Shown here: piece after piece, positions 16,001 through 29,848 of the stretch | Layout: every line of letters begins with the position of its first letter | How positions within the stretch are numbered: the stretch's first letter is position 1 | NCBI GenBank assembly: GCA_041651235.1 | Contig: JBAZJQ010000001.1 | Span: forward strand, 31,673-95,672 | Source: Candidatus Pacearchaeota archaeon | GTDB lineage: Archaea > Nanobdellota > Nanobdellia > Pacearchaeales > GW2011-AR1 | Reading direction: 5' to 3' | Length of the DNA: 64,000 nt | The notes under the pieces: generated by a model | Seen by the model: the letters and a program-made list of their open reading frames with translations, nothing else | Database searches by the model: none | What the model was told of the DNA's origin: nothing | Program-made: the position numbers and the translations under genes

Positions 16001-16097
16001 AATGAAAAACTTTTTTTATATTTTTTAAGTGATGATAAAATTAAGAAAAGTTTTTTAAAGTAGAAGATAATGATTATGTTATATAAAAGGAAATGAT

Positions 16098-16742: not shown

Positions 16743-16771
16743 GTGTATAAATAAAAGAATAAACAATGAAG

Positions 16772-16822
16772 CTACTGATATTAAGCTTAATCAACAGAAG
16801 TTAAGATGTTTAAATTTACATA
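16772..16822. repeat. partial copy of intergenic repeat (GATTAAGCTTAATC palindrome module)
   Basis: ctgatattaagcttaatcaacagaagttaagatgtttaaattta is near-identical to 59416-59459. Confidence 0.55.
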
Positions 16823-16845
16823 TTACCAAAATACAACAAGACAAA

Positions 16846-17253
16846 ATGGCAAAAAGATTTGATAGAAAGGCGTGGATAAAAATTGTAGAGGCATTTTTAG
16901 CTATTTTAATCATAAGCACAGCCTTGTTAGTTATTTTATCTGAACAGCCTAAAAAAATAGATAACAGCGAGGATATTTATTTATTGCAAAGACAGATTCT
17001 AGAAATTATAAGCAAAAATAATAGTTTAAGAGAAGATGTTTTGGGTTTAGATTATGCTCCCATTAATAACACCATAAGAAAAATGCTTTCACCTGCATTT
17101 GATTTTGACACTAAGATATGTGATTTAAAAGAAATATGCAATCCTTCAAATCTTCCAACAGATAAAGATGTTTATTCAACTGAAATTGTAATAACCGCTA
17201 CATTAACACAATATCAACCCCAAAAATTAAGATTCTTTGTCTGGGGAAAATAA
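16846..17253 (+). CDS. pilin-like small protein
   Basis: MAKRFDRKA|WIKIVEAFLAILIISTALLVIL. Hydrophobic pilin-like N-terminus with Glu at +6. Confidence 0.5.
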   Translation: MAKRFDRKAWIKIVEAFLAILIISTALLVILSEQPKKIDNSEDIYLLQRQILEIISKNNSLREDVLGLDYAPINNTIRKMLSPAFDFDTKICDLKEICNPSNLPTDKDVYSTEIVITATLTQYQPQKLRFFVWGK

Positions 17254-17364: not shown

Positions 17365-17898
17365 TTATTTACAACAAACCATATATAAAACATTTTTAGA
17401 GCCAGAGGCATCTCCATCGTCTGCTAAACATCCATTATCATACATTGATGCATCTAAGTCATCAGTGCCTACAGCTAGATGAACACACCCCGTTCTCATC
17501 CATCCATTTTTACAGTTCATACCAAATGAAGGGCCCACATCAGGATCTGAATAATCATTTACTTGATCGATAATATTAGTTATTGCTCCAGGATTTGAAC
17601 CAGTATAACTAACCATCGTTGCAGTTCCGTCTTCAACTCTTTTTAGAGTAACACAGCTTAAACTACTTGCAGAACATTCCCACCCATTTCCTGCAGAATT
17701 AACTTTTAAATAAGTTCCTGCTGTACAACCAACTCCAGAGGGAGCAGAAATCGCACTCAAATCATGACCTGGATTTTCAGCAACTCCCGGAGACCAAGAA
17801 ATTACAAACCCCACACTAATCAAAAAAATCATTAAAGCTCCTAATAGAAATAAATTTCTTTTTTCAAGTTTTAAATTGATATTAATGCTTTTTGCCAT
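17365..17898 (-). CDS. secreted Cys-rich protein, compositionally atypical (about 40% GC)
   Basis: 177 aa. N-terminal TM/signal. Ten Cys, ending ...LYMVCCK. Markedly higher GC than its neighbours. Confidence 0.55.
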   Translation of the reverse strand: MAKSININLKLEKRNLFLLGALMIFLISVGFVISWSPGVAENPGHDLSAISAPSGVGCTAGTYLKVNSAGNGWECSASSLSCVTLKRVEDGTATMVSYTGSNPGAITNIIDQVNDYSDPDVGPSFGMNCKNGWMRTGCVHLAVGTDDLDASMYDNGCLADDGDASGSKNVLYMVCCK

Positions 17899-17948
17899 CT
17901 CTTTTCTAAAATATATAGAAAACTATTATTTATAAATATTGGGGTATT

Positions 17949-18398
17949 TTGTTATTTATGAAGAATATGGGAAATTTTGAAAATAAAGATAAGTTCAAAT
18001 TCTTAGAACATACAGCAGATATTAAGTTTCAGGCATTTGGAGAAACACTTGAAAAAGCATTTGAAAATTCTGCTTATGCATTAAAAGATATTATAAGCAA
18101 AGATAAAACTAAGAATGAAATAATAAAGAGGATTAAAATTAATGGGAAGGATCTTGAAAGTTTGCTATTGAATTTTTTAGAAGAATTTTTGATTTTATTT
18201 GACATGGAAGGTTTTTTACTTTCAGAAATCTCAAAGATTAAAATAGATAAGAATAATTTTGTCTTAACTGCAGAAATTTTTGGAGATTATGCAGGAAAAT
18301 ATGAAATTAGAAATCATGTTAAAGCAATTACCTATAATGAAATGTTTGTTAAAAAGCATAAAAATACTTATATAATCCAAGTTGTAGTTGATGTGTAA
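17949..18398 (+). CDS. archease (RtcB activator)
   Basis: FLEHTADIKFQAFGETLEKAFENSA ... TAEIFGD ... KAITYNEMFV match conserved archease motifs. Confidence 0.8.
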   Translation: MLFMKNMGNFENKDKFKFLEHTADIKFQAFGETLEKAFENSAYALKDIISKDKTKNEIIKRIKINGKDLESLLLNFLEEFLILFDMEGFLLSEISKIKIDKNNFVLTAEIFGDYAGKYEIRNHVKAITYNEMFVKKHKNTYIIQVVVDV

Positions 18399-18670
18399 TG
18401 TTCAGAAAATTGATTTTGTCAATAAGAAATTTATATTCTTTTTTAAAAGAAGTAGACAATCTATGCCAAAACGTTATAGAGAAAAGAGAATATATTAAAC
18501 CAAAACGCTTTTATTCTATGACCAGAAGAGGAAAATTAGCAGAATTAGACTATAATATTGAAGTCCCTGATGGAGGATTTGTACACAGAGGGAAATATGA
18601 TGGTAAAAATTATTTTACATTCACTGAAAATAGAGTTATCGGATTAGAAAGCAGATGTGAGAATAGATAA
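18398..18670 (+). CDS. hypothetical small protein
   Basis: 90-aa ORF between archease and the nucleotidyltransferase. Confidence 0.4.
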   Translation: MFRKLILSIRNLYSFLKEVDNLCQNVIEKREYIKPKRFYSMTRRGKLAELDYNIEVPDGGFVHRGKYDGKNYFTFTENRVIGLESRCENR

Positions 18671-18700
18671 AATTAAATAATGAATTTTTCTTGATAAAAT

Positions 18701-19093
18701 ATGGAAATTTTAAAAGAATTAAATAAATTAAATCTTCCAAAAAATCAATTTGCAGTTTTTGGAAGCGGGCCTCTTACAATTAGAGGCATAAGAGAAAATA
18801 AAGATATAGATATAATTGTTAAAAAAGATTTATGGGATAAATTAATTAAAAAATACCAGATAATTGATTTTAAAAAAATAGATATTGAAAATATTGAAAT
18901 TTATAAAGATTGGAAGCCTTGGTTTAATGATGTTGATAAATTAATTGATGATGCGGATATTTTTAATGGAATAAGATTTGTTAAATTAAAATATGTTCTA
19001 AAATGGAAAGAAGAGTTTGGAAGAGAAAAAGATAAAAAAGATATTAAATTAATTAAAAAATACTTGGAAAATGGAATTAAAGAAGATATCTGA
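18701..19093 (+). CDS. minimal nucleotidyltransferase (Pol beta superfamily)
   Basis: FAVFGSGPLTIRGIRENKDIDIIV gives the hG[GS] motif plus DxD. Confidence 0.55.
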   Translation: MEILKELNKLNLPKNQFAVFGSGPLTIRGIRENKDIDIIVKKDLWDKLIKKYQIIDFKKIDIENIEIYKDWKPWFNDVDKLIDDADIFNGIRFVKLKYVLKWKEEFGREKDKKDIKLIKKYLENGIKEDI

Positions 19094-20447
19094 TAATGAA
19101 TGGGAAATCCCAAAACAAAATGGAATGAATGTTCCTGGAAAAATATTTGCTAGTGAGAAACTTCTTAATGACATAAAAAAAGACAAAACACTTGAACAAG
19201 TTAAAAATGTTGCAAAACTTCCTGGGATTATTGGTTCTAGCATAGCACTTATGGATGCTCATCAAGGCTATGGATTTAGTATCGGAGGTGTTGCTGGATT
19301 TGATATTGAAAAAGGAGTTATTAGTCCAGGAGGTGTTGGTTATGATATTGACTGCAGTGTTAGATTATTAAAAACTAACTTAAAATTATCTGATTTAAAA
19401 AAAATTGGAATAAAAGAATTAACACACTCTCTTTTCAGGGCAATTCCTTCTGGTGTTGGAAGAGGAAGCAAGATTAATCTTAAGTATAATGAATTAGATG
19501 AAATTTTAAAAAAAGGGGCTAGATGGGCAGTTGAAAATGGATATGGAATAAATGAAGATTTAAAGCATTTAGAAGATAATGGAAATCTTCTTCCTGCAAA
19601 TCCAGATGATGTTTCTAAAAGAGCAAAATCTCGTGGAATTGGGCAATTAGGAACATTAGGAGCTGGAAATCATTTTTTAGAAATTGGAATTGTTGATGAA
19701 GTTTATGATAGAGAATTTGCTAAAAAATTTGGATTAGAAAAAGGACAAATTACAATTATGATACATTGTGGATCAAGAGGATTAGGACATCAGGTTGCAT
19801 CAGATTACATTAAATTAATGGAAGATAAATATGGCTGGCCTGAATTTGACAGGGAGCTAGTTAATGCTCCAATAAAAAGCGAGCTTGGAGAAAAATATTT
19901 CTCTGCTATGAATTGTGCTGCAAATTTTGCATTTGCAAACAAACAGGTAATTACTCACTGGATTAGAGAAAACATGAAGCATTATTTTCCAAATGTAAAG
20001 ATTGATGTTGTTTATGAAGTATGCCATAATATTGCTAAATTTGAAGAGCATAAAATTAATGGAAAATTAAAAAAAATATTAGTTATGAGAAAAGGAGCTA
20101 CTCGTTCGTTTCCGAATCAGCCTGTTTTAATTCCTGGAAGCATGGGAACTTCTTCTTATGTTTTAGTTGGAACTGAAAATGCAATGGAAAAAAGTTTTGG
20201 AAGTACTGCACATGGTGCAGGAAGAGTTTCATCGAGGACAGCTGCACGAAAAAACTTGCATGCTGATGAAATTAAAAAAGAATTAAGCAAAAAAGGAATT
20301 GAAATTGAAGCTGGAAGTTTTCAGGGAATTGTTGAAGAGGCTCCAGAAGTTTACAAAGATATTGATGAAGTTGTAAGAGTTAGTCATGAAGCAGGCATTG
20401 GAGATTTAGTTGTAAAATTAAAACCTCTTGGTGTTGTTAAAGGATAG
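19071..20447 (+). CDS. rtcB: RNA-splicing ligase RtcB
   Basis: GYDIDCSVRLL, GAGNHFLEIG, HCGSRGLGHQVA and STAHGAGR motifs. 458 aa. Confidence 0.9.
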   Translation: MELKKISDNEWEIPKQNGMNVPGKIFASEKLLNDIKKDKTLEQVKNVAKLPGIIGSSIALMDAHQGYGFSIGGVAGFDIEKGVISPGGVGYDIDCSVRLLKTNLKLSDLKKIGIKELTHSLFRAIPSGVGRGSKINLKYNELDEILKKGARWAVENGYGINEDLKHLEDNGNLLPANPDDVSKRAKSRGIGQLGTLGAGNHFLEIGIVDEVYDREFAKKFGLEKGQITIMIHCGSRGLGHQVASDYIKLMEDKYGWPEFDRELVNAPIKSELGEKYFSAMNCAANFAFANKQVITHWIRENMKHYFPNVKIDVVYEVCHNIAKFEEHKINGKLKKILVMRKGATRSFPNQPVLIPGSMGTSSYVLVGTENAMEKSFGSTAHGAGRVSSRTAARKNLHADEIKKELSKKGIEIEAGSFQGIVEEAPEVYKDIDEVVRVSHEAGIGDLVVKLKPLGVVKG

Positions 20448-20487
20448 GCAATATTTATAAATATCTTATATCTTTATAGAATATAAA

Positions 20488-21357
20488 ATGAGGTGGAAAA
20501 TATTATTTTTAGTTGCAAGTTTATTATTAGTTATTCAAATGAGTAATCTTGTCTGTGCTGGAAATTGTTCTCCTGAATTTGCTGCATTAGGTGCAACAAT
20601 CTGTGATGAAAGTGGGAAGCCGATAAGTATTGTTGGACTTAAATCCTGTAAAGTATATGAAACTTATACAGAATGGATTAATTCAAGTGGAAATTTTCCC
20701 ATATTACCTAATGGAAATGAAAAGTGTTTTGTAGATACTGCTTTGGAACTTGTTGAAAGTTCAGATACTTGCTGTCCTGATGAAAGTGAGTGTGTGACTG
20801 ATCCTCCTACTGCAGGAGACTATGGGATGTGCAGAGTCAGTCTTGCAGATATGTGTATGGACTACCAAACTGAAGAGGCATGTAAAGGGCATTCACAATA
20901 TTCTGCAGATAATACAGAAAATGCTAAATATGGGGAAGGATTTTGTGGAACTTGGGGAGATTTAGGTAATGGATGTTTTTCAGAAATATATTGTAGTTGT
21001 GTTTGGAATGCAAGTGGAGGAATATGCCAAGGACAATTTGATAATCAAACATTTGGTGATCCTGCTATTTGTACTGCTACTTCTGGAGGATGTAAAGATT
21101 ATGCTGCTAATTGGGATGAAGAATTTACAAGTCAATGTGAAACAGGAGATATAGTTACAATTCATTGGGGCTCTGAACCTTGGGGGAATTATTCAACTAA
21201 CCCCCTATTAGCTGCATTATGTGTTGCATCTGATATTGAATATCCTTGTTCTATGGGCAAGAAGCTTCCTTTTTTCACTTCATTTAATTTTATTCTTAGT
21301 ATAATTTCTATAATGGGGATATACTATTTTTTAATAAAGAAGAATAAGATAAAATAA
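20488..21357 (+). CDS. secreted Cys-rich surface protein with C-terminal TM anchor
   Basis: Signal peptide MRWKILFLVASLLLVIQMSNLVCAG. More than 25 Cys. C-terminal hydrophobic FFTSFNFILSIISIMGIYYFLIKK. Confidence 0.55.
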   Translation: MRWKILFLVASLLLVIQMSNLVCAGNCSPEFAALGATICDESGKPISIVGLKSCKVYETYTEWINSSGNFPILPNGNEKCFVDTALELVESSDTCCPDESECVTDPPTAGDYGMCRVSLADMCMDYQTEEACKGHSQYSADNTENAKYGEGFCGTWGDLGNGCFSEIYCSCVWNASGGICQGQFDNQTFGDPAICTATSGGCKDYAANWDEEFTSQCETGDIVTIHWGSEPWGNYSTNPLLAALCVASDIEYPCSMGKKLPFFTSFNFILSIISIMGIYYFLIKKNKIK

Positions 21358-21397
21358 TTTTTTAAGTATTCGGAATATATTTGATTTTCTAACTTAT

Positions 21398-21522
21398 TTA
21401 TAATCTATTAGGACATTCGCTGATTTGAGGATAGAATTAAGATATTTATGCTGTTGATTATGGTTTATGAATAATATTCATCTTTAAATAATCTGCAGAT
21501 AGTATAATTAAGATGTTAATGA
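21398..21522. repeat. intergenic repeat family copy C (degenerate, composite)
   Basis: tttataatctattaggacattcgctgatttgaggatagaattaagatattt ... aataatctgcagatagtataattaagatgtt. Confidence 0.45.
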
Positions 21523-21608
21523 CAAAATAAAAATTAACTGAGGTTTTATTAGGATATAAATATTTTTTATTTCTGAAATATTTATAAAGATGTTTTCTAT
21601 GTATATTT

Positions 21609-24266
21609 ATGAAAAAGGGGTTAATATTAAGTTTAATTTTTATTGTGATTTTATCTGGGATAGTTTTTGCTGATATTCAATTAAAAAGTTATACTTTAGA
21701 AAAAACATATTCTCCAGGTTCTGCAATTAAAGGAACAATAATATTAGATATAAAAAATGTTTCTGAAAATACATTGTTTACTGGATTTAGTTCAAATATT
21801 AGTTTAATTGATTTCTTAGATGCAAATGATGCAAGTTATACTTGTTCTCCTAATTGTGAAGTAAAATATTCAAGAATTGGAAGTGCAGGTGAGACAAAAC
21901 AAATTGCATTAACTGCAGGTGAAACAAAAACCATAGGAATCAGGCTTGTTGGGAATATTACTTCAATAAATGGTTTAAAATTTGATATTACAAGCAATGC
22001 AGAAAGTTCTTGCACTCCTCCGTTAAAAATAGATATTTTAAGTGATGAAGCAATGGATTGGACAGCTGCAAATGGAGTTGAAGATTTTATCTGCCCTGTT
22101 TATCGTCCTTTTGGATGTTATAATGATTTAAATTTCAGCGGTGTTGTTGCAGATTTAAGTTCAAATTGGTATTGTGAAAGAATTAATATCCCTCCTTCAA
22201 TAATCTACAAAGTTGGAGCTAATATAACTAAAGCCTATGATGGAGTTGAGGATGTTGATATTTACTTTAGTGTGATTAGTGAGAGTATAAATGTTGGTTG
22301 TGATAATTCTACTCATGCAAATGGAGAAGTAAGCTGCATTGTTCAGATTGATAATGAAGAGTCTCAAGAGGTTGATGTATGCATTAGTGTTGATGAAGAA
22401 AATGCAGGAAAATATAAAATAAGAACAGAAGAAGTTGAACCTTGCGGTTACACAGATAATGATGAAGGAATAGACTTTCCGATTTTTATTAGGCCTGGAA
22501 AATATGGAATGTCTGGAAGCTTAACTTATAATGAATCTATTGAAGATGAGATTGATGATTATATTTCTGAAAAATATAATTATGATTGCAACCCTGAATG
22601 TATAATCCCAATTAGTTTTAGTGGGACTAGCCAAACAATAAGTGTATCTAATTTGAATTTAAAATATTCAACTAAAGTGGATTTAACTGAAAAAAATATT
22701 TATGATTTGCAGGAAGTTTCTCACTTGATAAGTTTAACTTCGGAGGATTTAGATTTATCGAAAGGAAATTTTATAGTTCCTTCTACAACCGGAATCAAAG
22801 AATTTAAATTAAAATTAGGGGACAAAGAACTAATTAAAGAGAATATTAATATAAGTGCTTCCAGTTCCAAGATAAAATCTATAATCCCCTCTATTACTGG
22901 AGCATTAGTCCCTACTTATTTTGCAGTAATCGGAGATTTTTCAACTAATACCACTTATTCCTGGGATTTTGGAGATGGGGACAAAGAAACAACTACTTCA
23001 AATATTGTATTGCATCTTTATCAAGAAATTAAAGTTTATGATTTAAAAGTTACTGCTAAAAACAGCCAGGGAGAATTCACTAAAATAGTTTCAATAAATG
23101 TAACTAATCCAAAAACTTCTATTCCGATTATACTCTCTAGATATAATGCTAATTTAGATAAAATACAGGCTAAATTAAATGTTCTTCCTGCATGGATTAA
23201 GACTTCCATTGGTTCGCAAATAGAGATAACTGAATTAAAAAAAGAATTAGGAAATTTATCTGCGAGGTATAATTCTACAACAAGTAACGAAGGTTATATT
23301 GATATTATGGAAGATTTGCTTTTATTAGATATTCCAGATTCTTTAGATGAAAAAGAATTAATTAAATCATTCCCATTACTTTTAGTAACTGAATCATTTT
23401 ATTCAGATGTTATGTCTGAACTAGGATTAGTTTCTGTTGATGAAGATTTGTATACTAGTGCAGTTAATTCCTGGATAATGGAAAATCTTAATATGAAAGT
23501 GGATGTAAAAACTTATTCTCTTGATTATGGCTATGATGAACCTGCTTTGTATTCTTATCTTAAGGTGAGTATCACTCCTAGAACATCTCTGAGCGAATTT
23601 TATTTTATTGTAAATGATTATCCTGATGAAGTTGTTTTTGCAGAAGATTATGGACAGGAAATAGTTGAAAGCAGCAATGTTATTTCTTATACAGGACTAG
23701 ATACAACAAAAACAATTGAATTTTTGTATCCTAGTGAGATTAATGTGGGATATTTTCCTGTTTATATTTTTGCCCCTGAAATTGATGTAAGTGAATTTAT
23801 TGTTGGAGAAGAAACTTGTGGGGATGGTTTTTGTGATAATGTGGGTGGAGAAGATTATAAGAATTGCAGAGAAGATTGCAAACCAATAGGATGGACAGTT
23901 TTCTTATTAATCGGTTTGTTAGTTGGTGCATTTATACTTTATATAATCCTGCAGGAATGGTATAAAAGACATTATGAAAAACATTTATTCCCTGACAGAA
24001 ATCACTTGTTTAATTTAATTAATTTCATGAATAATGCAAATAATCAGGGGGTTAAAAAAGGCGATATTTTTAGTGGATTATATAAAATGGATTGGAGAAG
24101 AGAGCAAGTTGGTTATGCATGGAAAAAGTTAAATGGATTAAGAACAGGTATGTGGGAAATACCTATATTTAAATTTGTTGAAAGGAAAGAAGTTAAAAGA
24201 GAATTAGAAAAGAGAACTGGAACTAATGTTAGACCTAATTTTAAAGGTTCTATGTTAAGGAGATAA
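21609..24266 (+). CDS. large surface protein with PKD-like domain and C-terminal Cys-knot plus TM anchor
   Basis: 885 aa. Signal peptide. WDFGDGD...YDLKVTAKNSQGE PKD-like motif. EETCGDGFCDNVGGEDYKNCREDC followed by TM WTVFLLIGLLVGAFILYIIL and a cytoplasmic tail. Confidence 0.6.
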   Translation: MKKGLILSLIFIVILSGIVFADIQLKSYTLEKTYSPGSAIKGTIILDIKNVSENTLFTGFSSNISLIDFLDANDASYTCSPNCEVKYSRIGSAGETKQIALTAGETKTIGIRLVGNITSINGLKFDITSNAESSCTPPLKIDILSDEAMDWTAANGVEDFICPVYRPFGCYNDLNFSGVVADLSSNWYCERINIPPSIIYKVGANITKAYDGVEDVDIYFSVISESINVGCDNSTHANGEVSCIVQIDNEESQEVDVCISVDEENAGKYKIRTEEVEPCGYTDNDEGIDFPIFIRPGKYGMSGSLTYNESIEDEIDDYISEKYNYDCNPECIIPISFSGTSQTISVSNLNLKYSTKVDLTEKNIYDLQEVSHLISLTSEDLDLSKGNFIVPSTTGIKEFKLKLGDKELIKENINISASSSKIKSIIPSITGALVPTYFAVIGDFSTNTTYSWDFGDGDKETTTSNIVLHLYQEIKVYDLKVTAKNSQGEFTKIVSINVTNPKTSIPIILSRYNANLDKIQAKLNVLPAWIKTSIGSQIEITELKKELGNLSARYNSTTSNEGYIDIMEDLLLLDIPDSLDEKELIKSFPLLLVTESFYSDVMSELGLVSVDEDLYTSAVNSWIMENLNMKVDVKTYSLDYGYDEPALYSYLKVSITPRTSLSEFYFIVNDYPDEVVFAEDYGQEIVESSNVISYTGLDTTKTIEFLYPSEINVGYFPVYIFAPEIDVSEFIVGEETCGDGFCDNVGGEDYKNCREDCKPIGWTVFLLIGLLVGAFILYIILQEWYKRHYEKHLFPDRNHLFNLINFMNNANNQGVKKGDIFSGLYKMDWRREQVGYAWKKLNGLRTGMWEIPIFKFVERKEVKRELEKRTGTNVRPNFKGSMLRR

Positions 24267-24483
24267 ATACCCAGAACTATATTCTTGGTAATGTCAAAAT
24301 TTTATACCTTATGCAGATGATATAGTTTAATGCCAGTAGATAATATGTTTGCTTTAATAATCGGCTATAATTATTAAAGATGTATAGTTTATAGGCATAC
24401 TTTAAAACAGTTATAATATTCGAGTATAGAAACCTTAATAAATATAAACTTTCTTTTTACAAAATAGAAAAAAATTAAAAGAA

Positions 24484-25125
24484 ATGGCAATAACAATTTT
24501 AAAAAATTTCACAAAGAGGATGTTTGCCCTGTTTTTCAGGAAAAAAAGAGATATAAGTATAGGATTTTATGGGCCCCCAAATGCAGGAAAAACTTCTCTA
24601 GCAAACAGAATCTGTAAAGACTGGACAGGAGAAGAAATTGGCAGTGTAAGCAAAATTCCTCATGAAACAAGACATGTTCAATTTAGAGAAGAAGTTGAAA
24701 TAAAATATAAAGAAAAAACTTTGAAATTCAAATTAATTGATACTCCTGGAATTGCCACTAAAATTGATTATGAAGATTTCATGAAGATGAAACTAAAGAA
24801 AAATGAAGCTCAAAAAAGAGCAAAAGAGGCAACACAAGGAATTGTCGAGGCGATTAAATGGCTGGATGATGTTGATGCTGTTGTAGTTGTTGTTGATGCA
24901 AGCCAGAATCCTTATTCACAAGTAAACATTACTATTGTTGGAAACTTAGTTGCTAGAAAAATACCTGTTTTAGTTGTTGCAAATAAAATTGATTTAAGAA
25001 AAGCTGATGTAAAAAAAGTAGAAGCAGCTTTTCCTGAATATGATGTTGTTGGAATTAGTGCAAAAAGCGGCAAAAATATGAATGAGTTTTATGAATCAAT
25101 ATTTAAATTAGCTAAGAAAGCCTGA
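24484..25125 (+). CDS. small Ras-like GTPase
   Basis: G1 GPPNAGKTS. G3 DTPG. G4 NKID. G5 SAK. 213 aa. Confidence 0.75.
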   Translation: MAITILKNFTKRMFALFFRKKRDISIGFYGPPNAGKTSLANRICKDWTGEEIGSVSKIPHETRHVQFREEVEIKYKEKTLKFKLIDTPGIATKIDYEDFMKMKLKKNEAQKRAKEATQGIVEAIKWLDDVDAVVVVVDASQNPYSQVNITIVGNLVARKIPVLVVANKIDLRKADVKKVEAAFPEYDVVGISAKSGKNMNEFYESIFKLAKKA

Positions 25126-25199
25126 TTCATAAAAATAAAAAACATTTAAAAACTAAAATATATATTAGATAATATACATACTAAAATAAAAAGAGGAAA

Positions 25200-25589
25200 A
25201 TGGCAAAAGATAAAATAAAAGGATTGACATTGCAATTTATGCCTTTTAGTGAAATTGCGAAGTTAGACACTGTTGAGAGAATAAAAAAACTTCTTAAGGT
25301 AATATTAAGCAATAAAGTAATTGTCTTGCAGGGAAGATTAAAACCAGAAGAAGAAACAAGATTAATCGAAGATACTATGATTATGGTTGGAAATTTAAAG
25401 GGATTTAAGGGAGTTGAATTAGCTGTTATTGAATCTGGTTCGGAACAATCAGGAGTTATGCAAAAAATGAAATTTGGATTAGCAAGAGCATTAACAGGAA
25501 CTCAAAATGCGCTTACAATTATTGGACCTGCAACTGTTGTTAAAGAAATGAAAAAAGATCCTACAAAATTAGAAGTTATGATGAGGTGA
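25200..25589 (+). CDS. conserved archaeal protein commonly paired with the GTPase (DUF2073-like, from memory)
   Basis: 129-aa ORF immediately downstream of the GTPase. Family assignment is from recollection only. Confidence 0.4.
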   Translation: MAKDKIKGLTLQFMPFSEIAKLDTVERIKKLLKVILSNKVIVLQGRLKPEEETRLIEDTMIMVGNLKGFKGVELAVIESGSEQSGVMQKMKFGLARALTGTQNALTIIGPATVVKEMKKDPTKLEVMMR

Positions 25590-25613
25590 TTAATAAAAGT
25601 GAAAGGAGGTAAA

Positions 25614-26504
25614 ATGAAAAAAATAATATTAAGTATTTTAATGATTAGTCTATTTAGTGTTGTATTGGTTTCAGCTTTCTGGCCTTTTGATGGAGCTTCA
25701 ATAACTGGTAATGCGGTAGTTTCTATTTGTGAAGAAGTTAATGGAGGAATTGTTATGAAATCAGTTAATAAATATAATAATTTAATTGTAGAACCAATAA
25801 CTTATAACAAATGCAGTTCTATAAGTAAAAAAACTTTAATTAAGTATTCTTGTATAGAAGGTACTAAAAAGCAAACTGAAAGAATTAAATGTGAAGGAGA
25901 ATGTGCAATTGATCCAGAAACTTATCTAGCTTATTGTAAAGATGAAGCTATAACTTGTACTGAACTTCAAAGTGGAAAGGGAGTAAAGGATCAAACAGGA
26001 AAGAAATATGAAAATTCTTGCAACAATGATATCTTTAATGGATATACTTGTGTGGATAATATCCCCACTTTAGCTACTCCTCAATATTGTAAAACTCAAG
26101 GAAAAGTCTGTACTGAAAAAGGATGCAAAGGAAAAGGAGAATGTTTTATGGATGAAGATAAAATAATGGCAATTGCATCAACAGGAATTATTGAGCTTAA
26201 ATCGAATACATGCCAAGATTCTACAAATGGGTTTAATTATGAATGTTCAGCTACTGGAAATCTAAAAGAAACTGCTGTTAATTGCGGTTCAACAAAAGAA
26301 TGCCAAAAAGTAGAAGGTATTGCAAAATGTGTAGCTAAAACAACCCCTACAACTACACCGACAACTACAACTCCTACTACAACCCCTACAACTACACCGA
26401 CAACTACAGCTACTCAAACAACTGACGAGAAATTAACTGCTTTGATAACTGCACTTTGTACAGATGCAAGTTTAAAAACAAAATTAGGGAGTCTTTGTAA
26501 TTAA
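25614..26504 (+). CDS. secreted Cys-rich protein with Thr/Pro-rich linker
   Basis: RBS AAGGAGGT then ATG 25614. Signal peptide. About 30 Cys. Linker TTPTTTPTTTTPTTTPTTTPTTTATQTT. Track start 25599 is a GTG. Confidence 0.55.
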   Translation: MKKIILSILMISLFSVVLVSAFWPFDGASITGNAVVSICEEVNGGIVMKSVNKYNNLIVEPITYNKCSSISKKTLIKYSCIEGTKKQTERIKCEGECAIDPETYLAYCKDEAITCTELQSGKGVKDQTGKKYENSCNNDIFNGYTCVDNIPTLATPQYCKTQGKVCTEKGCKGKGECFMDEDKIMAIASTGIIELKSNTCQDSTNGFNYECSATGNLKETAVNCGSTKECQKVEGIAKCVAKTTPTTTPTTTTPTTTPTTTPTTTATQTTDEKLTALITALCTDASLKTKLGSLCN

Positions 26505-26686
26505 TTTTTATTGTATTTCTTTTCATTTATTTTTTTATTTATAATATAGAGAAATCCATCGAGAAATATTTATACAAACTTTCTTTAAAAAGACAAGTTT
26601 GAACAAAGCAATCTTTCTTTTTAGAAAAAATACAAGCTTGAACAAAGAAAAACTAAGTTTGATACAAAAAGTTAAATCAAAAGCAA

Positions 26687-26712
26687 ATAAATATTTCTCG
26701 AGAAATATTTAT
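26687..26712. promoter_or_regulatory. 26-bp perfect palindrome about 25 bp upstream of the 26737 gene, embedded in short direct repeats
   Basis: ataaatatttctc|gagaaatatttat. cgagaaatatttata is also present at 26560-26574. Three ACAAGTTTGAACAAAG-like repeats lie between. Confidence 0.4.
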
Positions 26713-26736
26713 AAAGTGTTTTTATATTGATATAAT

Positions 26737-29049
26737 ATGGAAAAGAGGGTAATTGGAATATTTATTTTTTTAATAGTTTTAGTTAGCTTGAATTTTATAA
26801 GTGCTGATGTTGGAACCTGTACTTACCCTATACTTTATATTTCAAATACAACAAATGCTCATGCATCTACAACAGGTAGTTATTCTCAGAAAGTTTGTCT
26901 TCCAGGGACATCTAGTCCAATAAATGGAGCAGGACCAATTGCATTATACTTATCTTCTGCTGGAAATGCTCATGCTTCTTATTCAAATAGTGCCTGGACT
27001 CCAATTCAAGTTGGAAGTAATTATTCTTCTTGTCAATTAGGTGCAACTTGTACTGCAGAGCAAGATTGCTTGTTAAGTTTATCTTCTCAAGATAATGCCC
27101 ATGTAGGAAATTGTGCTGCATATCCTTCAAATAAAATTTGCTGTACAAAAAAAGTAACAACCTCCTGCACTACAGAAAACACAGCAGCAGGAAATTGCGC
27201 TGATGGAGTTGATAATGATTGTGATGGATTAACTGATTGTGGAGAAACTACTGATTGTGCAACAGCAGCTAATTGCGTTGCTGATTGTGAAATAACAGAT
27301 GCTTATTTTGTAGATTCTGATGATAATGTTTTATTGGGTGATGCTGAAGTTTATTTGGGAGATAGTGTTTATCTAACTGTTGAAGGGTCTTCCGGGTGCA
27401 ATGGAAAATCTGTAAATTTCTCTATAAAAGAAGCTGATTGTGTTTTAGGAATTTGCAGTCTAGCTAATACTCCTTTTACAATTGCAAATTCTGTCTTTGG
27501 AGCAGATAATACCTTGCAGAAGGAATGGGCAACTCAATGGGTTGATGATTCTGGAGGAACAAATATTAATCCAGAATATGTTTTTATAACTACTTTACTT
27601 TCTGATGCGAGTGAAACAAAAAATTCTAAGGATTATAGTGGTGGAAAGTCAAGTATTAAATTATTAAAATGTGGTGATGGCACTTGCTCTGAAACTTTTG
27701 GAGAAACTTGTTCTAATTGTCCTGGAGATTGCGGGGTTTGCACTTGTACATACACTGTTTACCATAATCATACTGCATGTTATGGAGATAATATATATTG
27801 GTATGATGATTGTGGAATTAAAAATGATCTTTTCCAAAATTGTGGTACAGATACTTGTACTTGGAGTGCTTGGACTTGTTTAGATAGTGATACAAAAACT
27901 CACTCACGATCCGGAACTAATTATGGATGTTCAAATAATGCGTGTACTGTTGGTTCATGTACTGGAACTGAAACAGAAAACTGTCTTTCTGGGCAAATCT
28001 GCAGTTTAGGAGAATGTATTACTCCGCCATCTGACAGATACTGGGCAAATACAAATGGAATTGAAATAGAAGATGCGCAGTTGGGAGATACTGTATTGAT
28101 GATTGATGAATCTTTAACAACAGGAACTCATTTATTTGAAATATATGAAAAAGATGGCTTAACAGCAGATGAGGAAATAAGAACTGGAACAAATGGAATT
28201 AATTCTGAAATAATAAATGGATATGCTACTGGAACTTGGAAGATTTTACAAGAAGACTTAGCAAAAACCTCAGATTATGATAATTTCGAGTTTGAAGTTG
28301 ACGAAGGAGCTAGATCTAAAGACTTGAAGATACTTGCATCTGTTTCAAACTCAAAACCTGTTGCAGTTATAACTGCCCCTCCTGCAAATAATAAATATTC
28401 AATTAGTAAAAATAGCCCTAATCCTTCAACAGGAAATATTGATTTCAAACAAGAAAGCTATGATGCTGATGATTTATTAAATATAAGATGGGATTATGGA
28501 GATGATTATAATGAAAGTTGTACAGATTATAGTTTACTTACTCCAAATAAATGTGACAAAATTCATGCATATACTTCAAGTGGTTCAAAGCTAATTAAAC
28601 TTACAGCAAAAGAAATGACTAGAATACAATCAGATACAGATACAAGATATGTGTTTGTTTATCAAGAAGGAATAAATGTATTTTCAGTTATTAGTGACCC
28701 AATTACTTATGGGAAAGTTGCAAAAATGTATGGAGGAGATAGTTATGTTAGTGATTGTGATACTGCTACTCCTTGTGATACTAGTAGTGGTGAATACCAA
28801 GTTAATCCTGTTGCTGGAAGCGGAAATCCTGTATTATGTTGTAAAGATAGGCCTAAACCTGAAACTGGAGGAAATTATGACTTTTTAATGCAATGGATAT
28901 TTGATGGAGATTCTACTAAAGCAATACTTGGAAAATGGACTACTAATTATGATAACGTTGTTAATTTTACTTATTTTTTTCAAGAATCAGGAGAACATGA
29001 AGCAAATTTAAAAATTGGATTTATACCTTGCGGCGGTTCTTGCCCTTAA
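26737..29049 (+). CDS. large secreted Cys-rich surface protein
   Basis: 770 aa. Signal peptide. Many Cys clusters including CGDGTCSETFGETCSNCPGDCGVC. Confidence 0.55.
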   Translation: MEKRVIGIFIFLIVLVSLNFISADVGTCTYPILYISNTTNAHASTTGSYSQKVCLPGTSSPINGAGPIALYLSSAGNAHASYSNSAWTPIQVGSNYSSCQLGATCTAEQDCLLSLSSQDNAHVGNCAAYPSNKICCTKKVTTSCTTENTAAGNCADGVDNDCDGLTDCGETTDCATAANCVADCEITDAYFVDSDDNVLLGDAEVYLGDSVYLTVEGSSGCNGKSVNFSIKEADCVLGICSLANTPFTIANSVFGADNTLQKEWATQWVDDSGGTNINPEYVFITTLLSDASETKNSKDYSGGKSSIKLLKCGDGTCSETFGETCSNCPGDCGVCTCTYTVYHNHTACYGDNIYWYDDCGIKNDLFQNCGTDTCTWSAWTCLDSDTKTHSRSGTNYGCSNNACTVGSCTGTETENCLSGQICSLGECITPPSDRYWANTNGIEIEDAQLGDTVLMIDESLTTGTHLFEIYEKDGLTADEEIRTGTNGINSEIINGYATGTWKILQEDLAKTSDYDNFEFEVDEGARSKDLKILASVSNSKPVAVITAPPANNKYSISKNSPNPSTGNIDFKQESYDADDLLNIRWDYGDDYNESCTDYSLLTPNKCDKIHAYTSSGSKLIKLTAKEMTRIQSDTDTRYVFVYQEGINVFSVISDPITYGKVAKMYGGDSYVSDCDTATPCDTSSGEYQVNPVAGSGNPVLCCKDRPKPETGGNYDFLMQWIFDGDSTKAILGKWTTNYDNVVNFTYFFQESGEHEANLKIGFIPCGGSCP

Positions 29050-29135
29050 TTAATATTTTTGAAATCAATAAAGCTTATTAACTAATAAAAGCATTTAGGA
29101 TAAATAAAAGAGAAACAAATACTTAATTTTATAAA

Positions 29136-29597
29136 ATGGGTCATCAATGCACACATTGCGGAAAGATTTATCCTGATGCATCTCAGGAGCTATTAACTGG
29201 ATGTTCTTGTGGAGCTCGGTTTTTTTATTATATTAAACAAGAAAAAATAGAGCAATTAGAAAGAGAAACTCAGAATAAGATAGAACTTCTCAATCGAGCA
29301 GATAAAATACAAGTTGAAAAAGATATTAGAGAAATAACTGGATTAGATGAAGAACCAGATAAGCCAGTTATATTAGATTTAGAATCTATTAAAATACTTG
29401 AACCAGGAAAATTTGAAATCGATATTATTAATTTATTTTCAAGAAATCGTCCTTTAATATACAAATTAGAAGAAGGAAAATATATTATTGATTTATCAAG
29501 TAGTTTGAAAGTAGATACCGATGAAATTAATAAAAAAATCAGAAATCCTGATTTGTTGAAACAAGAAGAAAGAGAGAGAAAGGAAGAAGAAAAATGA
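29136..29597 (+). CDS. Zn-ribbon protein (DUF2072-like, from memory)
   Basis: MGHQCTHCGKIY...GCSCGARFF gives a four-Cys ribbon. Lys/Glu-rich C-terminus. Confidence 0.5.
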   Translation: MGHQCTHCGKIYPDASQELLTGCSCGARFFYYIKQEKIEQLERETQNKIELLNRADKIQVEKDIREITGLDEEPDKPVILDLESIKILEPGKFEIDIINLFSRNRPLIYKLEEGKYIIDLSSSLKVDTDEINKKIRNPDLLKQEERERKEEEK

Positions 29598-29848
29598 AAG
29601 CTTATTTGAAGGTATATGGTATTAGGGAAGGGCAATTTTCAAATGAAAATGTTGTTAGATGTACGACTTTTACTGGTTCTGAAATATCTGGATTTTTTGA
29701 TAAAAGGTTTATATGTCCCTTGGGTTTAGAAGTGAAAGTTTTGGATAATCAAGGAGAAGCAACTTGCATTGTCCCTCAAGGAGGAAACTTCTTAGAAGAA
29801 AATAATCCTATTTGGGTTAATTCATCTGGTATAACTTATGAAAACTAA
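29594..29848 (+). CDS. hypothetical small protein
   Basis: 84-aa ORF overlapping the previous stop by 4 nt. Confidence 0.4.
   Translation: MKAYLKVYGIREGQFSNENVVRCTTFTGSEISGFFDKRFICPLGLEVKVLDNQGEATCIVPQGGNFLEENNPIWVNSSGITYEN

What the first reader, a model, noticed from the sequence alone, without database searches (positions are those of the whole stretch)
17365..29049. Exceptional density of secreted cysteine-rich surface proteins sharing a CGDGxC...C..DC pre-anchor module
Seen in sequence: ORFs 17365 (minus strand), 20488, 21609, 25614, 26737, and also 3450, 35047 and 50676, are all signal-peptide or pilin-signal proteins with 10 to over 60 Cys. ORF 21609 (EETCGDGFCDNVGGEDYKNCREDC then TM) and 26737 (CGDGTCSETFGETCSNCPGDCGVC) share a CGDGxC-x7-10-C-x2-DC module. 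ORF 21609 also has a PKD-like WDFGDGD motif, and 25614 a (TTPT)n stalk. Inference: an extracellular, disulfide-stabilised adhesin or host-interaction repertoire typical of episymbiotic archaea. In total these genes occupy about 9 kb of a 64-kb window.
Basis: partly seen in the sequence, partly recalled or inferred. Interest (0 to 1): 0.6.

Follow-up and report, generated by a model that had tools for sequence, protein, structure and literature searches.

The report
Cysteine-rich surface proteins beside vesicle GTPase
The cysteine-rich exported proteins seen here in a tiny DPANN archaeon are mostly not a random adhesin collection: three of them form a gene set conserved across this archaeal group that sits right next to the small-GTPase genes known to drive vesicle budding in other archaea, which suggests, but does not prove, a link between surface proteins and membrane budding.

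Summary
Observation partly confirmed. The window is from a Candidatus Pacearchaeota (DPANN) genome. The named ORFs exist, carry N-terminal signals or anchors, and are Cys-rich (8-44 Cys, not "10 to over 60"). Exported proteins hold 3.2% Cys against 0.92% for cytoplasmic ones.

The CGDGxC...C..DC element is real but small. It is a four-cysteine mini-domain next to the membrane in ORF 21609. In ORF 26737 it is internal, and that protein has no anchor.

ORF 21609 belongs to a large, uniform family of about 900 aa: signal peptide, beta-sandwich/PKD ectodomain, 4-Cys module, one TM helix and a well conserved 105-aa cytoplasmic tail. In 71 of 76 related loci its gene lies directly upstream of arvA/oapA, followed by arvB and arvC. 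This is the small-GTPase module shown to drive vesicle formation in Haloferax.

ORFs 26737 and 20488 are homologous to the two halves of one fused protein. In other genomes that protein is encoded directly upstream of the 21609-type gene. ORF 25614 is an orphan.

Coupling of the surface complex to ArvABC is inferred from gene context only. Rivals are plain adhesins and an S-layer-like envelope.

The parts
17365..17898 (-). Small N-terminally anchored protein, 177 aa, 8 Cys. The conserved N-terminal 80 aa hold a TM helix and a G-H-x-x-x-[EA]-[IM/L] motif. The C-terminal Cys-containing domain is variable.
   Evidence: for the ORF and Cys count. Homologs in 7 loci match only aa 3-86. The PCSK9_C3 match is sub-threshold (22.4 < 26.7 bits).
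20488..21357 (+). Protein B: Cys-rich type I membrane protein of 289 aa. It has a signal peptide, 20 Cys in the mature part, a C-terminal KLPFF..N motif, a TM helix and a KKNKIK tail.
   Evidence: Homologs lie directly upstream of the 21609-type gene in L001, L011, L021, L047 and others. It is fused to 26737-like sequence in L057, L040, L035, L066, L070, L041 and L044. The C-terminal signature is conserved across about 55 upstream neighbours by eye; the regex matched 30 of 58.
21609..24266 (+). Protein C: 885-aa type I membrane protein. It has a signal peptide, beta-sandwich domains, a PKD domain, a helical and mixed domain, the 4-Cys module, a TM helix and a conserved cytoplasmic tail.
   Evidence: Full-length orthologs at 27-45% identity. 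The C-terminal profile finds 1,380 representatives, nearly all of 880-990 aa. AF2 model: mean pLDDT 80.9. Fold matches are generic Ig-like/MG/PKD only.
22941..23099 (+). PKD domain of protein C (aa 445-497, includes WDFGDGD).
   Evidence: PF00801, E 3.7e-8, 33.7 bits against a cutoff of 23.5. W452, F454, G455 and D456 are invariant.
23817..23879 (+). Juxtamembrane 4-Cys module of protein C (aa 737-757, CGDGFCDNVGGEDYKNCREDC).
   Evidence: It is present in 65 of 77 full-length family members, with consensus C-N-x-[ND]-x-x-C-[ED]-x(0-4)-G-E-x3-N-C-x2-D-C-K-P. There is no Pfam or NCBIfam family; RET_CRD is sub-threshold. AF2 confidence is low here (pLDDT 47-61).
23886..23951 (+). Transmembrane helix of protein C (about aa 760-781).
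   Evidence: Hydropathy. AF2 predicts a continuous helix.
23952..24263 (+). Cytoplasmic tail of protein C (aa 782-885). It has a membrane-proximal helix (QEWYKRxYE), a three-helix bundle (about aa 797-841), the R-T-G-M-W-E-I-P-x-F motif and a basic helix.
   Evidence: It is the best conserved part of the family: 51% mean column identity against 39% for the whole protein. The AF2 tail model has pLDDT 95-97 for the bundle. There is no Pfam, NCBIfam or PDB relative.
24141..24170 (+). Conserved short motif RTGMWEIPIF (aa 845-854) in a low-confidence loop of the tail.
   Evidence: It is invariant in the 9 closer orthologs and served as the search pattern that recovered 196 genomes. pLDDT is 58-72.
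24484..25125 (+). arvA/oapA: small GTPase with a basic-hydrophobic N-terminal helix (ILKNFTKRMFALFFRKK).
   Evidence: MMR_HSR1, E 1.2e-17, and the small_GTP domain. It is 69-86% identical across loci. Its identity rests on the arvB and arvC genes downstream and on PMC10927574.
25200..25589 (+). arvB/oapB (DUF2073).
   Evidence: PF09846 OapB, E 1.8e-16.
25599..26504 (+). Orphan secreted protein (ATG at 25614): signal peptide, 20 Cys, (TTPT)n linker, no membrane anchor. It is inserted in the arvB-arvC gap.
   Evidence: No homolog in 88 loci or in the large protein database (that search may be blinded by the low-complexity stretch).
26737..29049 (+). Protein A: 770-aa secreted protein with 44 Cys and no anchor. 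It holds three NAH-motif repeats (aa 24-140), an acidic CxDGxDNDCDG stretch, the internal CGDG module, a Cys-rich region and a conserved C-terminal core with a PKD-like domain.
   Evidence: The core aa 420-765 is conserved in 18 or more loci, while the N-terminal half is variable. It usually lies upstream of B and C or is fused to B. The same arvB-arvC position occurs in the closest relative, L011.
27670..27732 (+). Internal copy of the 4-Cys module in protein A (aa 312-332, CGDGTCSETFGETCSNCPGDC).
   Evidence: It matches the module HMM at E 1.2e-3 in a database of about 950 proteins. It is 48% identical over 23 aa to the pre-TM module of P0015.
29136..29597 (+). arvC/oapC (Zn-ribbon, DUF2072).
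   Evidence: PF09845 OapC, E 1.7e-23.

Best explanation
The core of the interval is a conserved gene set of Nanoarchaeota-type DPANN archaea (records labelled Pacearchaeota, Woesearchaeota or Nanoarchaeota). It is not a free-standing adhesin repertoire.

Three exported, disulfide-rich proteins belong together:
- A (ORF 26737) is large and secreted.
- B (ORF 20488) is a type I membrane protein of about 290 aa.
- C (ORF 21609) is a type I membrane protein of about 900 aa with a PKD domain and a conserved 105-aa cytoplasmic tail.

In most relatives the order is A-B-C or AB(fused)-C, followed at once by arvA-arvB-arvC. This is the small-GTPase module that drives extracellular-vesicle formation in Haloferax volcanii. 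In this genome and its closest relative, A has moved into the arvB-arvC gap, a recurrent insertion site. Here it sits with an orphan Cys-rich gene (ORF 25614).

Proposed mechanism:
1. A is held at the surface by B. They are one chain in other genomes.
2. B and C sit side by side in the membrane as a disulfide-stabilised surface complex. The 4-Cys 'CGDGxC' element is a small stalk knot directly above C's membrane helix.
3. C's tail (a three-helix bundle plus the RTGMWEIPxF peptide) binds a cytoplasmic partner, most likely ArvA, ArvB or ArvC. Surface complex and GTPase-driven membrane budding or remodelling would then be placed together, for example by loading the complex onto vesicles or by budding at a contact site.

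Shown: architectures, export signals, Cys enrichment, family sizes, fusions, gene order.
Inferred: the A-B-C complex, any binding of the tail to Arv proteins, and any vesicle or host-contact role.

My confidence that the conserved cassette and its positional tie to arvABC are real is about 0.85. My confidence that the tie is functional is about 0.4.
For: Source and family:
- The window matches a Candidatus Pacearchaeota contig of 647,740 nt, and ORF 21609 has full-length orthologs.
- A profile of its module, TM and tail finds 1,380 representatives (531 at E <= 1e-30). Nearly all are 880-990 aa long with the match at about aa 750-900.
- 196 species genomes hold a relative.

Gene order in 76 non-redundant loci:
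- C to ArvA: 71/76 directly adjacent on the same strand, median gap 59 nt, 16 with a gap of 20 nt or less, including 4-nt overlaps.
- ArvA to ArvB: 60/71.
- ArvB to ArvC: 34/68.
- ArvC to the CCA enzyme: 29/57.
- So the C-arvA junction is the tightest in the neighbourhood, tighter than the arvA-arvB pair that has experimental support.
- Of the five exceptions, one (L043) is an ORF-calling artefact; tblastn still places ArvA next to C there. Four have small ORFs inserted (L011, L044, L050, L058).

Other evidence:
- Upstream of C, 47 of 62 immediate neighbours are same-strand proteins with at least 3% Cys. Of these, 43 have an N-terminal signal and 41 a C-terminal TM, often overlapping C by 4 nt.
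- 42 of 47 loci have such a gene within 3.7 kb upstream.
- Single proteins in L057, L040, L035, L066, L070, L041 and L044 align to ORF 26737 in their N-terminal or middle part and to ORF 20488 in their C-terminal part.
- The tail is more conserved than the ectodomain. It folds with pLDDT 95-97 as a three-helix bundle, and the invariant RTGMWEIP motif lies in a low-confidence loop, as partner-binding peptides do.
- arvB and arvC are identified by Pfam. The function of ArvA, ArvB and ArvC in vesicle formation, and their presence in DPANN, come from PMC10927574. That paper analysed only downstream genes.
Against: - All support for coupling to ArvABC is positional.
- Gene order is broadly conserved in this clade. 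The unrelated CCA-adding enzyme, TrmB and SPP genes also keep their places. Adjacency alone can therefore be inherited order rather than function.
- In the window the C-arvA gap is 217 nt and AT-rich, with a possible TATA-like box, so arvA may have its own promoter.
- The tail has no detectable relative of known function.
- No interaction could be modelled.
- ArvA function has been shown only in a haloarchaeon.
- Some family members lack the RTGMWEIP motif (P0010, P0012-P0015) or the 4-Cys module (P0011, P0014) yet keep the adjacency.
- Only the 80 best of 196 genome loci were inspected.
Confidence: 0.45

Rival explanations
1. Plain surface adhesins or host-interaction proteins. A, B, C, ORF 25614 and ORF 17365 are disulfide-stabilised binding proteins for attachment to a host or substrate. 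Their position next to arvABC is inherited gene order without functional meaning.
For: - The ectodomains are built of Ig-like and PKD beta-sandwiches, which are typical binding scaffolds.
- The ectodomains evolve fast: 26-44% identity against 45-64% for the tail.
- The N-terminal half of A, the C-terminal part of ORF 17365 and ORF 25614 are variable or orphan.
- Other unrelated genes also keep conserved order here.
Against: - It does not explain why the most conserved part of C is a 105-aa cytoplasmic tail with an invariant peptide motif.
- It does not explain why C-arvA is the tightest junction of the neighbourhood, with frequent gaps of 20 nt or less.
- C is a uniform core family rather than a variable repertoire.
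Confidence: 0.25
2. Cell-envelope (S-layer-like) components. A or AB forms an outer canopy, and B and C are membrane-anchored stalk proteins, as with SlaA/SlaB of Sulfolobales or the proposed Ig-fold, C-terminal-TM anchor proteins of Nanobdella.
For: - The set combines a large soluble protein with membrane-anchored partners encoded side by side.
- It is built of multiple Ig-like folds with a C-terminal TM helix.
- C is near-universal and uniform in the clade.
- No DPANN S-layer protein has been determined, and candidates have exactly this look (bioRxiv 10.1101/2023.10.27.564410).
- Weak fold matches include archaeal S-layer entries (1l0q and 7ptp).
Against: - S-layer anchors normally have short basic tails, not a conserved folded cytoplasmic domain (own knowledge).
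- N-glycosylation sequons are only mildly enriched in C (12 against 8.1 +/- 2.5 expected) and depleted in A (6 against 10.5).
- The fold matches are generic, with TM-scores below 0.2.
- Expression level is unknown.
Confidence: 0.2
3. Accessory proteins of the type IV pilus-like apparatus. A, B and C are pilus-associated adhesins or anchoring proteins of the neighbouring T2SSE/T2SSF/pilin cluster.
For: - In the window, T2SSF genes (13747, 15119) and pilin-like genes (16098, 16846) lie just upstream.
- Pilin-like genes lie within 3.7 kb upstream of C in 11 of 47 loci, and directly before AB-C in L005, L073, L079, L081 and L084-L086.
Against: - The link is much looser (11/47) than that to arvA (71/76).
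- It is interrupted by archease and RtcB in this window and others.
- A, B and C have ordinary signal peptides, not pilin-type ones.
Confidence: 0.07
4. Intracellular Zn-binding or otherwise non-secreted Cys-rich proteins, or non-genes.
For: No dedicated signal-peptide predictor was run.
Against: - N-terminal n-h-c signals are conserved in orthologs.
- The type I topology has a positive-inside tail.
- Cys is absent from C's tail and TM helix.
- Cys numbers in the mature parts are even.
- Long ORFs are conserved over 27-45% identity.
Confidence: 0.02

Closest known systems
ArvA-ArvB-ArvC (OapA/B/C) vesiculation operon of Haloferax volcanii and other archaea (Mills et al. 2024, PMC10927574)
   Same: The window holds the same three genes in the same order: a small GTPase with a basic-hydrophobic N-terminal helix, the DUF2073 gene directly downstream, and the Zn-ribbon DUF2072 gene further downstream.
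   Different: Here, and in 71/76 related loci, the GTPase gene is preceded by a conserved type I membrane protein with a cytoplasmic tail, and that gene by Cys-rich exported proteins. The paper analysed downstream genes only and describes no membrane partner. Two secreted-protein genes are inserted between arvB and arvC in the window. The function of Arv proteins in DPANN is untested.
Eukaryotic Sar1/Arf budding with transmembrane partners (the membrane-anchored exchange factor Sec12; cargo receptors whose cytoplasmic tail peptides bind the coat) - own knowledge
   Same: The logic would be the same if the hypothesis holds: a small GTPase with an amphipathic N-terminal helix, plus single-pass membrane proteins whose short cytoplasmic motifs connect the outside or lumenal cargo to the budding machinery.
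   Different: There is no sequence or fold relation between the tail and Sec12 or known cargo-receptor tails. This is an analogy only, resting on gene context.
Two-component archaeal S-layers (SlaA canopy and SlaB membrane stalk, Sulfolobales) and proposed Ig-fold, C-terminal-TM anchor proteins of the DPANN archaeon Nanobdella aerobiophila (10.1101/2023.10.27.564410)
   Same: A large soluble exported protein has membrane-anchored partners encoded next to it. The proteins are strings of Ig-like beta-sandwiches with a C-terminal TM helix.
   Different: No sequence similarity was found. Cys content is very high. C has a folded, conserved cytoplasmic tail. There is no strong sequon enrichment.
Small disulfide-knot repeats with a CG[DN]G start: disintegrin N-terminus and Myxococcus cysteine-rich repeat (CGNG/CGDGxxxxGEECD; own knowledge), and the acidic double-disulfide repeat NF033662
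   Same: It is a short acidic module with four cysteines and a G-[DN]-G...G-E...C..D-C pattern. It occurs singly or in tandem in extracellular proteins.
   Different: The spacing differs (C-x4/5-C-x8-12-C-x3-C, ending DCKP before a TM helix). No curated model matches the module. NF033662 touches a different stretch of ORF 26737 (aa 153-180), at 16.7 bits against a cutoff of 41.

Membership tests
PKD domain (Pfam PF00801 / PF18911) | Score above the Pfam gathering threshold | tested here: met
   ORF 21609: PF00801 scores 33.7 bits against a cutoff of 23.5, and PF18911 27.7 against 27. The WDFGDG core is invariant in orthologs. PKD structures match at TMt 0.64-0.74.
PKD domain (Pfam PF18911) in ORF 26737 | Score above the Pfam gathering threshold | tested here: inconclusive
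   21.2 bits against a cutoff of 27, E 3e-4, at aa 571-640. The homolog in L008 does carry PKD hits on record.
ArvABC / OapABC operon | [quoted passage not shown] | tested here: met
   MMR_HSR1, E 1.2e-17, and the small_GTP domain at 62.5 bits against a cutoff of 42.5. The N-terminus ILKNFTKRMFALFFRKK is in the sequence. No ArvA-specific model exists in the libraries, and no direct comparison with HVO_3014 was possible.
ArvABC / OapABC operon | ArvB (DUF2073, PF09846) directly downstream of the GTPase | tested here: met
   ORF 25200-25589: PF09846, E 1.8e-16, with a 74-nt gap after arvA.
ArvABC / OapABC operon | ArvC (Zn-ribbon DUF2072, PF09845) within two genes downstream of arvA | tested here: not met
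   ArvC is present (PF09845, E 1.7e-23), but it is the fourth gene after arvA because ORFs 25614 and 26737 are inserted. The paper itself reports this position as less conserved. In related loci ArvB is followed directly by ArvC in 34/68.
ArvABC / OapABC operon | Role in extracellular-vesicle formation | not testable with these tools
   This has been shown only for H. volcanii.
Archaeal type IV pilin / archaellin N-terminal domain (TIGR02537) for ORFs 35047 and 3450 | Class III signal peptide model above the cutoff | tested here: inconclusive
   ORF 35047 scores 19.5 bits against a cutoff of 20. ORF 3450 gives only a weak UpsA match, 20.8 against 130.
   No CARDB or DUF11 hit at E <= 1 in any of the nine proteins.
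Acidic double-disulfide repeat (NF033662) / Myxococcus-type Cys repeats | Model score above the cutoff | tested here: not met
   16.7 bits against a cutoff of 41, and at aa 153-180 of ORF 26737 rather than at the CGDG module. The module alone has no NCBIfam hit.
RET cysteine-rich domain (PF22540) | Score above the gathering threshold | tested here: not met
   17.9 bits against a cutoff of 26 for the 34-aa module.
Archaeosortase/exosortase C-terminal sorting signals (PGF-CTERM and relatives) for protein B | Short motif, TM helix and basic cluster at the C-terminus, recognised by a curated model, with a sortase gene present | tested here: inconclusive
   The three-part look is there and conserved (L-[PG]-F-F-x-x-x-N, TM, KKK). 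No sorting-domain model matches, and no archaeosortase was found among the window proteins tested. The rest of the genome was not available.
Two-component S-layer (SlaA/SlaB-like) | Lattice-forming, highly expressed, heavily glycosylated envelope proteins | not testable with these tools
   Only indirect evidence is available: generic fold matches and modest sequon counts.
Class II fusogens / fusexins | Three-domain class II fusion fold | tested here: not met
   No such entry appears among the 50 best PDB or 50 best viral-structure matches, and all matches have TM-scores of about 0.1 or less over the full length.

The most novel reading that the evidence does not exclude
In Nanoarchaeota-type DPANN archaea the ArvABC vesiculation GTPase module works with a dedicated transmembrane partner. 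The roughly 900-aa PKD protein would use its conserved cytoplasmic tail (three-helix bundle plus the RTGMWEIPxF peptide) to recruit or position ArvA or ArvB at the membrane. ArvB is the SepF-like protein reported to lack a membrane anchor of its own. The protein's disulfide-rich ectodomain, together with the A/B proteins, would define what is displayed on the bud. This would be a receptor-coupled budding or contact system, an archaeal counterpart of cargo-receptor or Sec12-type logic, and possibly the way these episymbionts exchange material with hosts.
Probability: 0.3. Interest if true: 0.8.

Novelty: new variant of a known kind. Interest (0 to 1): 0.55.

Why it matters
ArvA is so far the only small GTPase shown to drive vesicle formation in archaea. 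How it is brought to the membrane, what it loads and what it does in DPANN archaea are all open questions; the authors of the ArvA study say so themselves.

A conserved single-pass membrane protein with a folded cytoplasmic tail, encoded directly in front of arvA in 71 of 76 related loci examined, is a concrete candidate partner that can be tested. So are its Cys-rich extracellular companions.

It also reclassifies a set of 'hypothetical' or 'PKD domain' proteins of Pacearchaeota and Woesearchaeota as one three-part system, and shows that two of them are split halves of one protein.

If the linkage is only inherited gene order, the result is still useful. It shows that Cys-rich exported proteins are a general trait of this clade and that this window is not exceptional.

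Tried and rejected
- Pfam and NCBIfam scans of all nine Cys-rich proteins found only PKD, the S8 protease and sub-threshold hits. No CARDB or DUF11 was found.
- The module and the tail searched alone in Pfam, NCBIfam and PDB sequences gave nothing usable.
- Fold search of the full-length model against the PDB and viral structures gave only generic Ig-like, macroglobulin or PKD matches with TM-scores of about 0.1. No fusogen-like or specific S-layer match appeared.
- Fold search of the tail model gave no match with E below 3. The nearest resemblances (Pex14 N-terminal domain, a RecX repeat) are not significant.
- The homolog search for ORF 26737 returned only itself and one partial hit. This suggested an orphan, but local tblastn and phmmer on fetched loci showed a conserved C-terminal core. 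The 'orphan' reading was rejected.
- The homolog search for ORF 25614 found nothing, not even itself, probably because TTPT low-complexity words filled the candidate list. Its orphan status rests mainly on absence from 88 loci.
- The first genome scan with the 15-sequence alignment failed for lack of a conserved stretch. It was repeated with 9 closer sequences.
- I considered that the tail peptide EIPxF mimics the FtsZ C-terminal peptide bound by SepF, since ArvB is reported as SepF-like. The archaeal FtsZ motif is GID, not a proline motif (PMC8178401), and an ArvB profile finds no SepF in PDB sequences. The idea is kept only as speculation.
- I considered a sortase-type sorting signal at the C-terminus of B. 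There is no model match and no archaeosortase in the window.
- N-glycosylation sequon counts do not separate the S-layer rival from the others.
- I did not hand in a chimeric tail-ArvA construct for structure prediction.

Full report
**Source and setting**

The window has about 29% G+C. ORF 21609-24266 is 100% identical to a protein annotated 'PKD domain-containing protein [Candidatus Pacearchaeota archaeon]' on a contig of 647,740 nt, so the window comes from a DPANN archaeon.

Around the interval lie these genes:
- type IV pilus-like genes: T2SSE at 6729, T2SSF at 13747 and 15119, and pilin-like ORFs;
- archease (17949) and RtcB (19071);
- a small GTPase (24484);
- OapB (25200, PF09846, E 1.8e-16) and OapC (29136, PF09845, E 1.7e-23);
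- a CCA-adding-enzyme-like gene (29871), identified by the Pfam families of its homologs in the loci.

**Check of the observation**

All named ORFs exist. Cys counts are:

| ORF | Cys | Length (aa) |
|---|---|---|
| 17365 (minus strand) | 8 | 177 |
| 20488 | 21 | 289 |
| 21609 | 16 | 885 |
| 25599/25614 | 20 | 301 |
| 26737 | 44 | 770 |
| 3450 | 29 | 558 |
| 35047 | 19 | 825 |
| 50676 | 14 | 136 |

The neighbouring S8 protease (51079) has 16. '10 to over 60' is therefore wrong at both ends.

Proteins with an N-terminal signal or anchor hold 3.2% Cys, against 0.92% for proteins without a TM segment (p = 7e-5). The same contrast holds in 86 related loci (2.74% vs 1.05%). Cys-rich exported proteins are thus a clade trait rather than a peculiarity of this window.

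Mature Cys numbers are even in all five proteins of the interval. One of the 21 Cys of ORF 20488 lies in its signal peptide.

The quoted module sequences are exact and are the only CG[DN]GxC matches in six frames. Shuffling gives 0 and 3 hits in 200,000. Only in ORF 21609 does the module precede a membrane anchor. In ORF 26737 it is internal, and that protein has no anchor. The eight named genes cover 11.8 kb.

**ORF 21609 (protein C)**

Fifteen full-length orthologs at 27-45% identity align end to end. The parts in order are:
- a signal peptide;
- a beta-rich ectodomain with ten conserved cysteines;
- a PKD domain (PF00801, above the cutoff);
- a helical segment and a mixed domain;
- the 4-Cys module;
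- one TM helix;
- a 105-aa tail without cysteine.

The tail is the best conserved region: 51% mean column identity against 39% for the whole protein.

AF2 gives mean pLDDT 80.9 for the whole protein. For the tail it predicts a three-helix bundle at pLDDT 95-97. The invariant RTGMWEIPxF motif follows in a low-confidence loop, and then a basic helix.

Neither the tail nor the module has a Pfam, NCBIfam or PDB relative. The ectodomain gives only generic Ig-like, macroglobulin or PKD fold matches.

A profile of module, TM and tail finds 1,380 cluster representatives (531 at E <= 1e-30). Nearly all are 880-990 aa long with the match near the C-terminus. This is one large, uniform family, not a tail shared by many ectodomains.

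**The module**

In 65 of 77 full-length family members the juxtamembrane element reads C-N-x-[ND]-x-x-C-[ED]-x(0-4)-G-E-x3-N-C-x2-D-C-K-P. The 'CGDG' form occurs only in the window and its closest relatives (L001 has CGDG; L011 and the more distant L007 have CGNG).

An HMM of the module also finds internal, sometimes tandem, copies in Cys-rich proteins encoded upstream of C:
- L073 (E 1.3e-8);
- L085;
- L020 (two to four copies);
- ORF 26737 (E 1.2e-3 in a small database).

It is therefore a small mobile disulfide knot and a minor feature of the system.

**Gene context**

In all eight first loci, the gene for C lies directly upstream of the GTPase, OapB and OapC genes.

OapA has been renamed ArvA, the 'archaeal vesiculating GTPase'. 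According to PMC10927574:
- its knockout abolishes RNA-carrying extracellular vesicles in Haloferax volcanii, and overexpression raises them;
- arvB and arvC knockouts also change vesicle yield;
- ArvA homologs occur in seven DPANN phyla;
- the paper examined only genes downstream of arvA.

I found no paper in the searchable library that describes an upstream membrane partner.

A scan of species-representative genomes with the tail alignment found 196 relatives. Eighty loci were fetched. They are labelled Pacearchaeota, Woesearchaeota, Nanoarchaeota and once Parvarchaeota; two are labelled bacterial and are probably mis-binned.

Adjacency in the 76 non-redundant loci with enough sequence:

| Junction | Directly adjacent |
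|---|---|
| C to ArvA | 71/76 |
| ArvA to ArvB | 60/71 |
| ArvB to ArvC | 34/68 |
| ArvC to CCA enzyme | 29/57 |
| CCA enzyme to TrmB | 13/34 |

For C to ArvA the genes are on the same strand, the median gap is 59 nt, and 16 loci have a gap of 20 nt or less, including 4-nt overlaps. Of the five exceptions, L043 is an ORF-calling artefact in which an antisense ORF masks ArvA; tblastn still places ArvA next to C there. L011, L044, L050 and L058 have small ORFs inserted.

The C-arvA junction is thus the most conserved in the neighbourhood.

**Proteins A and B**

The gene directly upstream of C is a same-strand protein with at least 3% Cys in 47 of 62 loci. Of these, 43 have an N-terminal signal and 41 a C-terminal TM helix, and the gene often overlaps C by 4 nt. 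In 42 of 47 loci such a gene lies within 3.7 kb upstream.

These neighbours come in two forms:
- about 290 aa with 18-23 Cys, homologous to ORF 20488;
- 600-1,240 aa.

Seven of the long ones (L057, L040, L035, L066, L070, L041, L044) align to ORF 26737 in their N-terminal or middle part (aa 10-145 and/or within aa 420-764). They align to ORF 20488 in their C-terminal part. Where both genes are separate, the order is 26737-like, 20488-like, C, arvA (for example L021, L047, L030).

A and B are therefore two parts of one functional unit. Their shared C-terminal end, L-[PG]-F-F-x-x-x-N, TM helix, lysine run, is conserved throughout.

In the window and its closest relative L011, the A gene lies between arvB and arvC instead. 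That gap also holds unrelated secreted-protein genes in other genomes (L005, L039, L046, L062, L082).

Only the C-terminal core of A (aa 420-765) is widely conserved. Its N-terminal half, which includes the CGDG module, is variable.

**Remaining genes of the interval**

- ORF 25614 has no homolog in 88 loci or in the large database.
- ORF 17365 shares only its N-terminal 80 aa (TM helix plus a GHxxxE[IM]-type motif) with relatives. These relatives have different C-terminal domains and usually lie antisense near the cluster.

**Interpretation**

Shown:
- there is a conserved cassette of exported, disulfide-rich proteins (A, B and C);
- C has a conserved folded cytoplasmic tail;
- the cassette is tied by position to arvABC.

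Inferred:
- A, B and C form a surface complex;
- C's tail connects that complex to the Arv machinery, so that budding or membrane remodelling and surface display are coupled.

The main caveat is that gene order is generally conserved in this clade. Functionally unrelated genes such as the CCA enzyme, TrmB and SPP also keep their places. The window's 217-nt C-arvA spacer may contain its own promoter.

Rivals are plain adhesins, an S-layer-like two-component envelope and pilus accessories:
- No DPANN S-layer protein has been determined, and the proposed candidates look alike.
- Sequon counts do not decide the S-layer question.
- The pilus link is much looser (11/47 loci).

**Verdict**

Its 'adhesin repertoire sharing a pre-anchor module' reading is only partly supported. 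The more interesting content is the conserved A/B/C-arvABC arrangement, which I could not find described. It is a new variant of a known system (ArvABC), supported by comparative genomics only.

Noticed in passing
window 25590-29135 (between arvB and arvC); also L005, L039, L046, L062, L082: The arvB-arvC gap is a recurrent insertion site. ArvB is followed directly by ArvC in only 34/68 loci. The inserted genes are often secreted or Cys-rich, for example an RCC1-repeat protein of 658-663 aa in L005, 35047-like genes in L039, and a small ORF of about 98-109 aa at that position in L002, L006, L009, L016 and L021 (signal-bearing in four of the five, not L006).
   Followed up: partly
L007 4109-6127; L069 (ArvA ORF of 678 aa); L004 2446-5088: There are inteins in related genomes. 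ArvA carries an intein with a LAGLIDADG endonuclease in L007, and probably in L069. RtcB carries one in L004.
   Followed up: no
window 17365-17898 (-) and homologs in L001, L012, L015, L017, L066, L082, L083: This is a family with a conserved N-terminal TM helix and a G-H-[ST/D]-x-x-[EA]-[IML] motif, followed by unrelated C-terminal domains (0-8 Cys). The genes are mostly antisense to their neighbours. It looks like a conserved anchor with swappable heads. Function is unknown.
   Followed up: partly
window 21270-21357 (C-terminus of ORF 20488) and about 55 upstream-neighbour proteins in the loci: The C-terminal signature is conserved: L-[PG]-F-F-[GTSN]-x-x-N, a TM helix with an I-Y pair, then a lysine run. 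It resembles a sortase-type sorting signal in layout. It matches no curated model, and no archaeosortase was found in the window.
   Followed up: partly
window 50676-51086 and 51079-53496: A 136-aa membrane-anchored protein with 14 Cys overlaps by 8 nt the start of an S8 subtilase (PF00082, E 6.6e-38). The subtilase has a C-terminal TM helix and a strong excess of N-glycosylation sequons (32 against 17 expected). They may be a protease and partner or inhibitor pair.
   Followed up: no
window 3450-8405 and 13747-17253: There are two blocks of type IV pilus-like genes. They comprise a 558-aa pilin-signal protein with 29 Cys, three small pilin-like ORFs, a T2SSE ATPase, two T2SSF genes and two more pilin-like ORFs (16098, 16846). 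Homologs of the last two lie upstream of the C gene in 11 of 47 loci.
   Followed up: partly
window 26806-27160 (ORF 26737 aa 24-140): There are three repeats of about 40 aa, each with an N-A-H motif (TNAHAS, GNAHAS, DNAHVG). This suggests a three-fold repeat fold such as a beta-trefoil lectin. The region is also matched in AB fusion proteins of L057, L070, L024, L041 and L084.
   Followed up: no
window 29594-29848: A small 84-aa ORF overlaps the end of arvC by 4 nt. It has homologs after arvC in 9 locus proteins (for example L002, L025, L032, L061). It may be a further conserved member of the arv neighbourhood.
   Followed up: no
L014 (JAFCCB010000005.1) and L033 (JAUUWR010000076.1): These contigs carry the archaeal C-arvA-arvB cluster but are filed under a Dojkabacteria bin and an unnamed 'bacterium' bin. 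This is probably mis-binning.
   Followed up: no
window 47183-48307 (-): An exported and membrane-anchored transglutaminase-like protein (PF01841, E 3.5e-6). It is another envelope-acting enzyme in the window.
   Followed up: no
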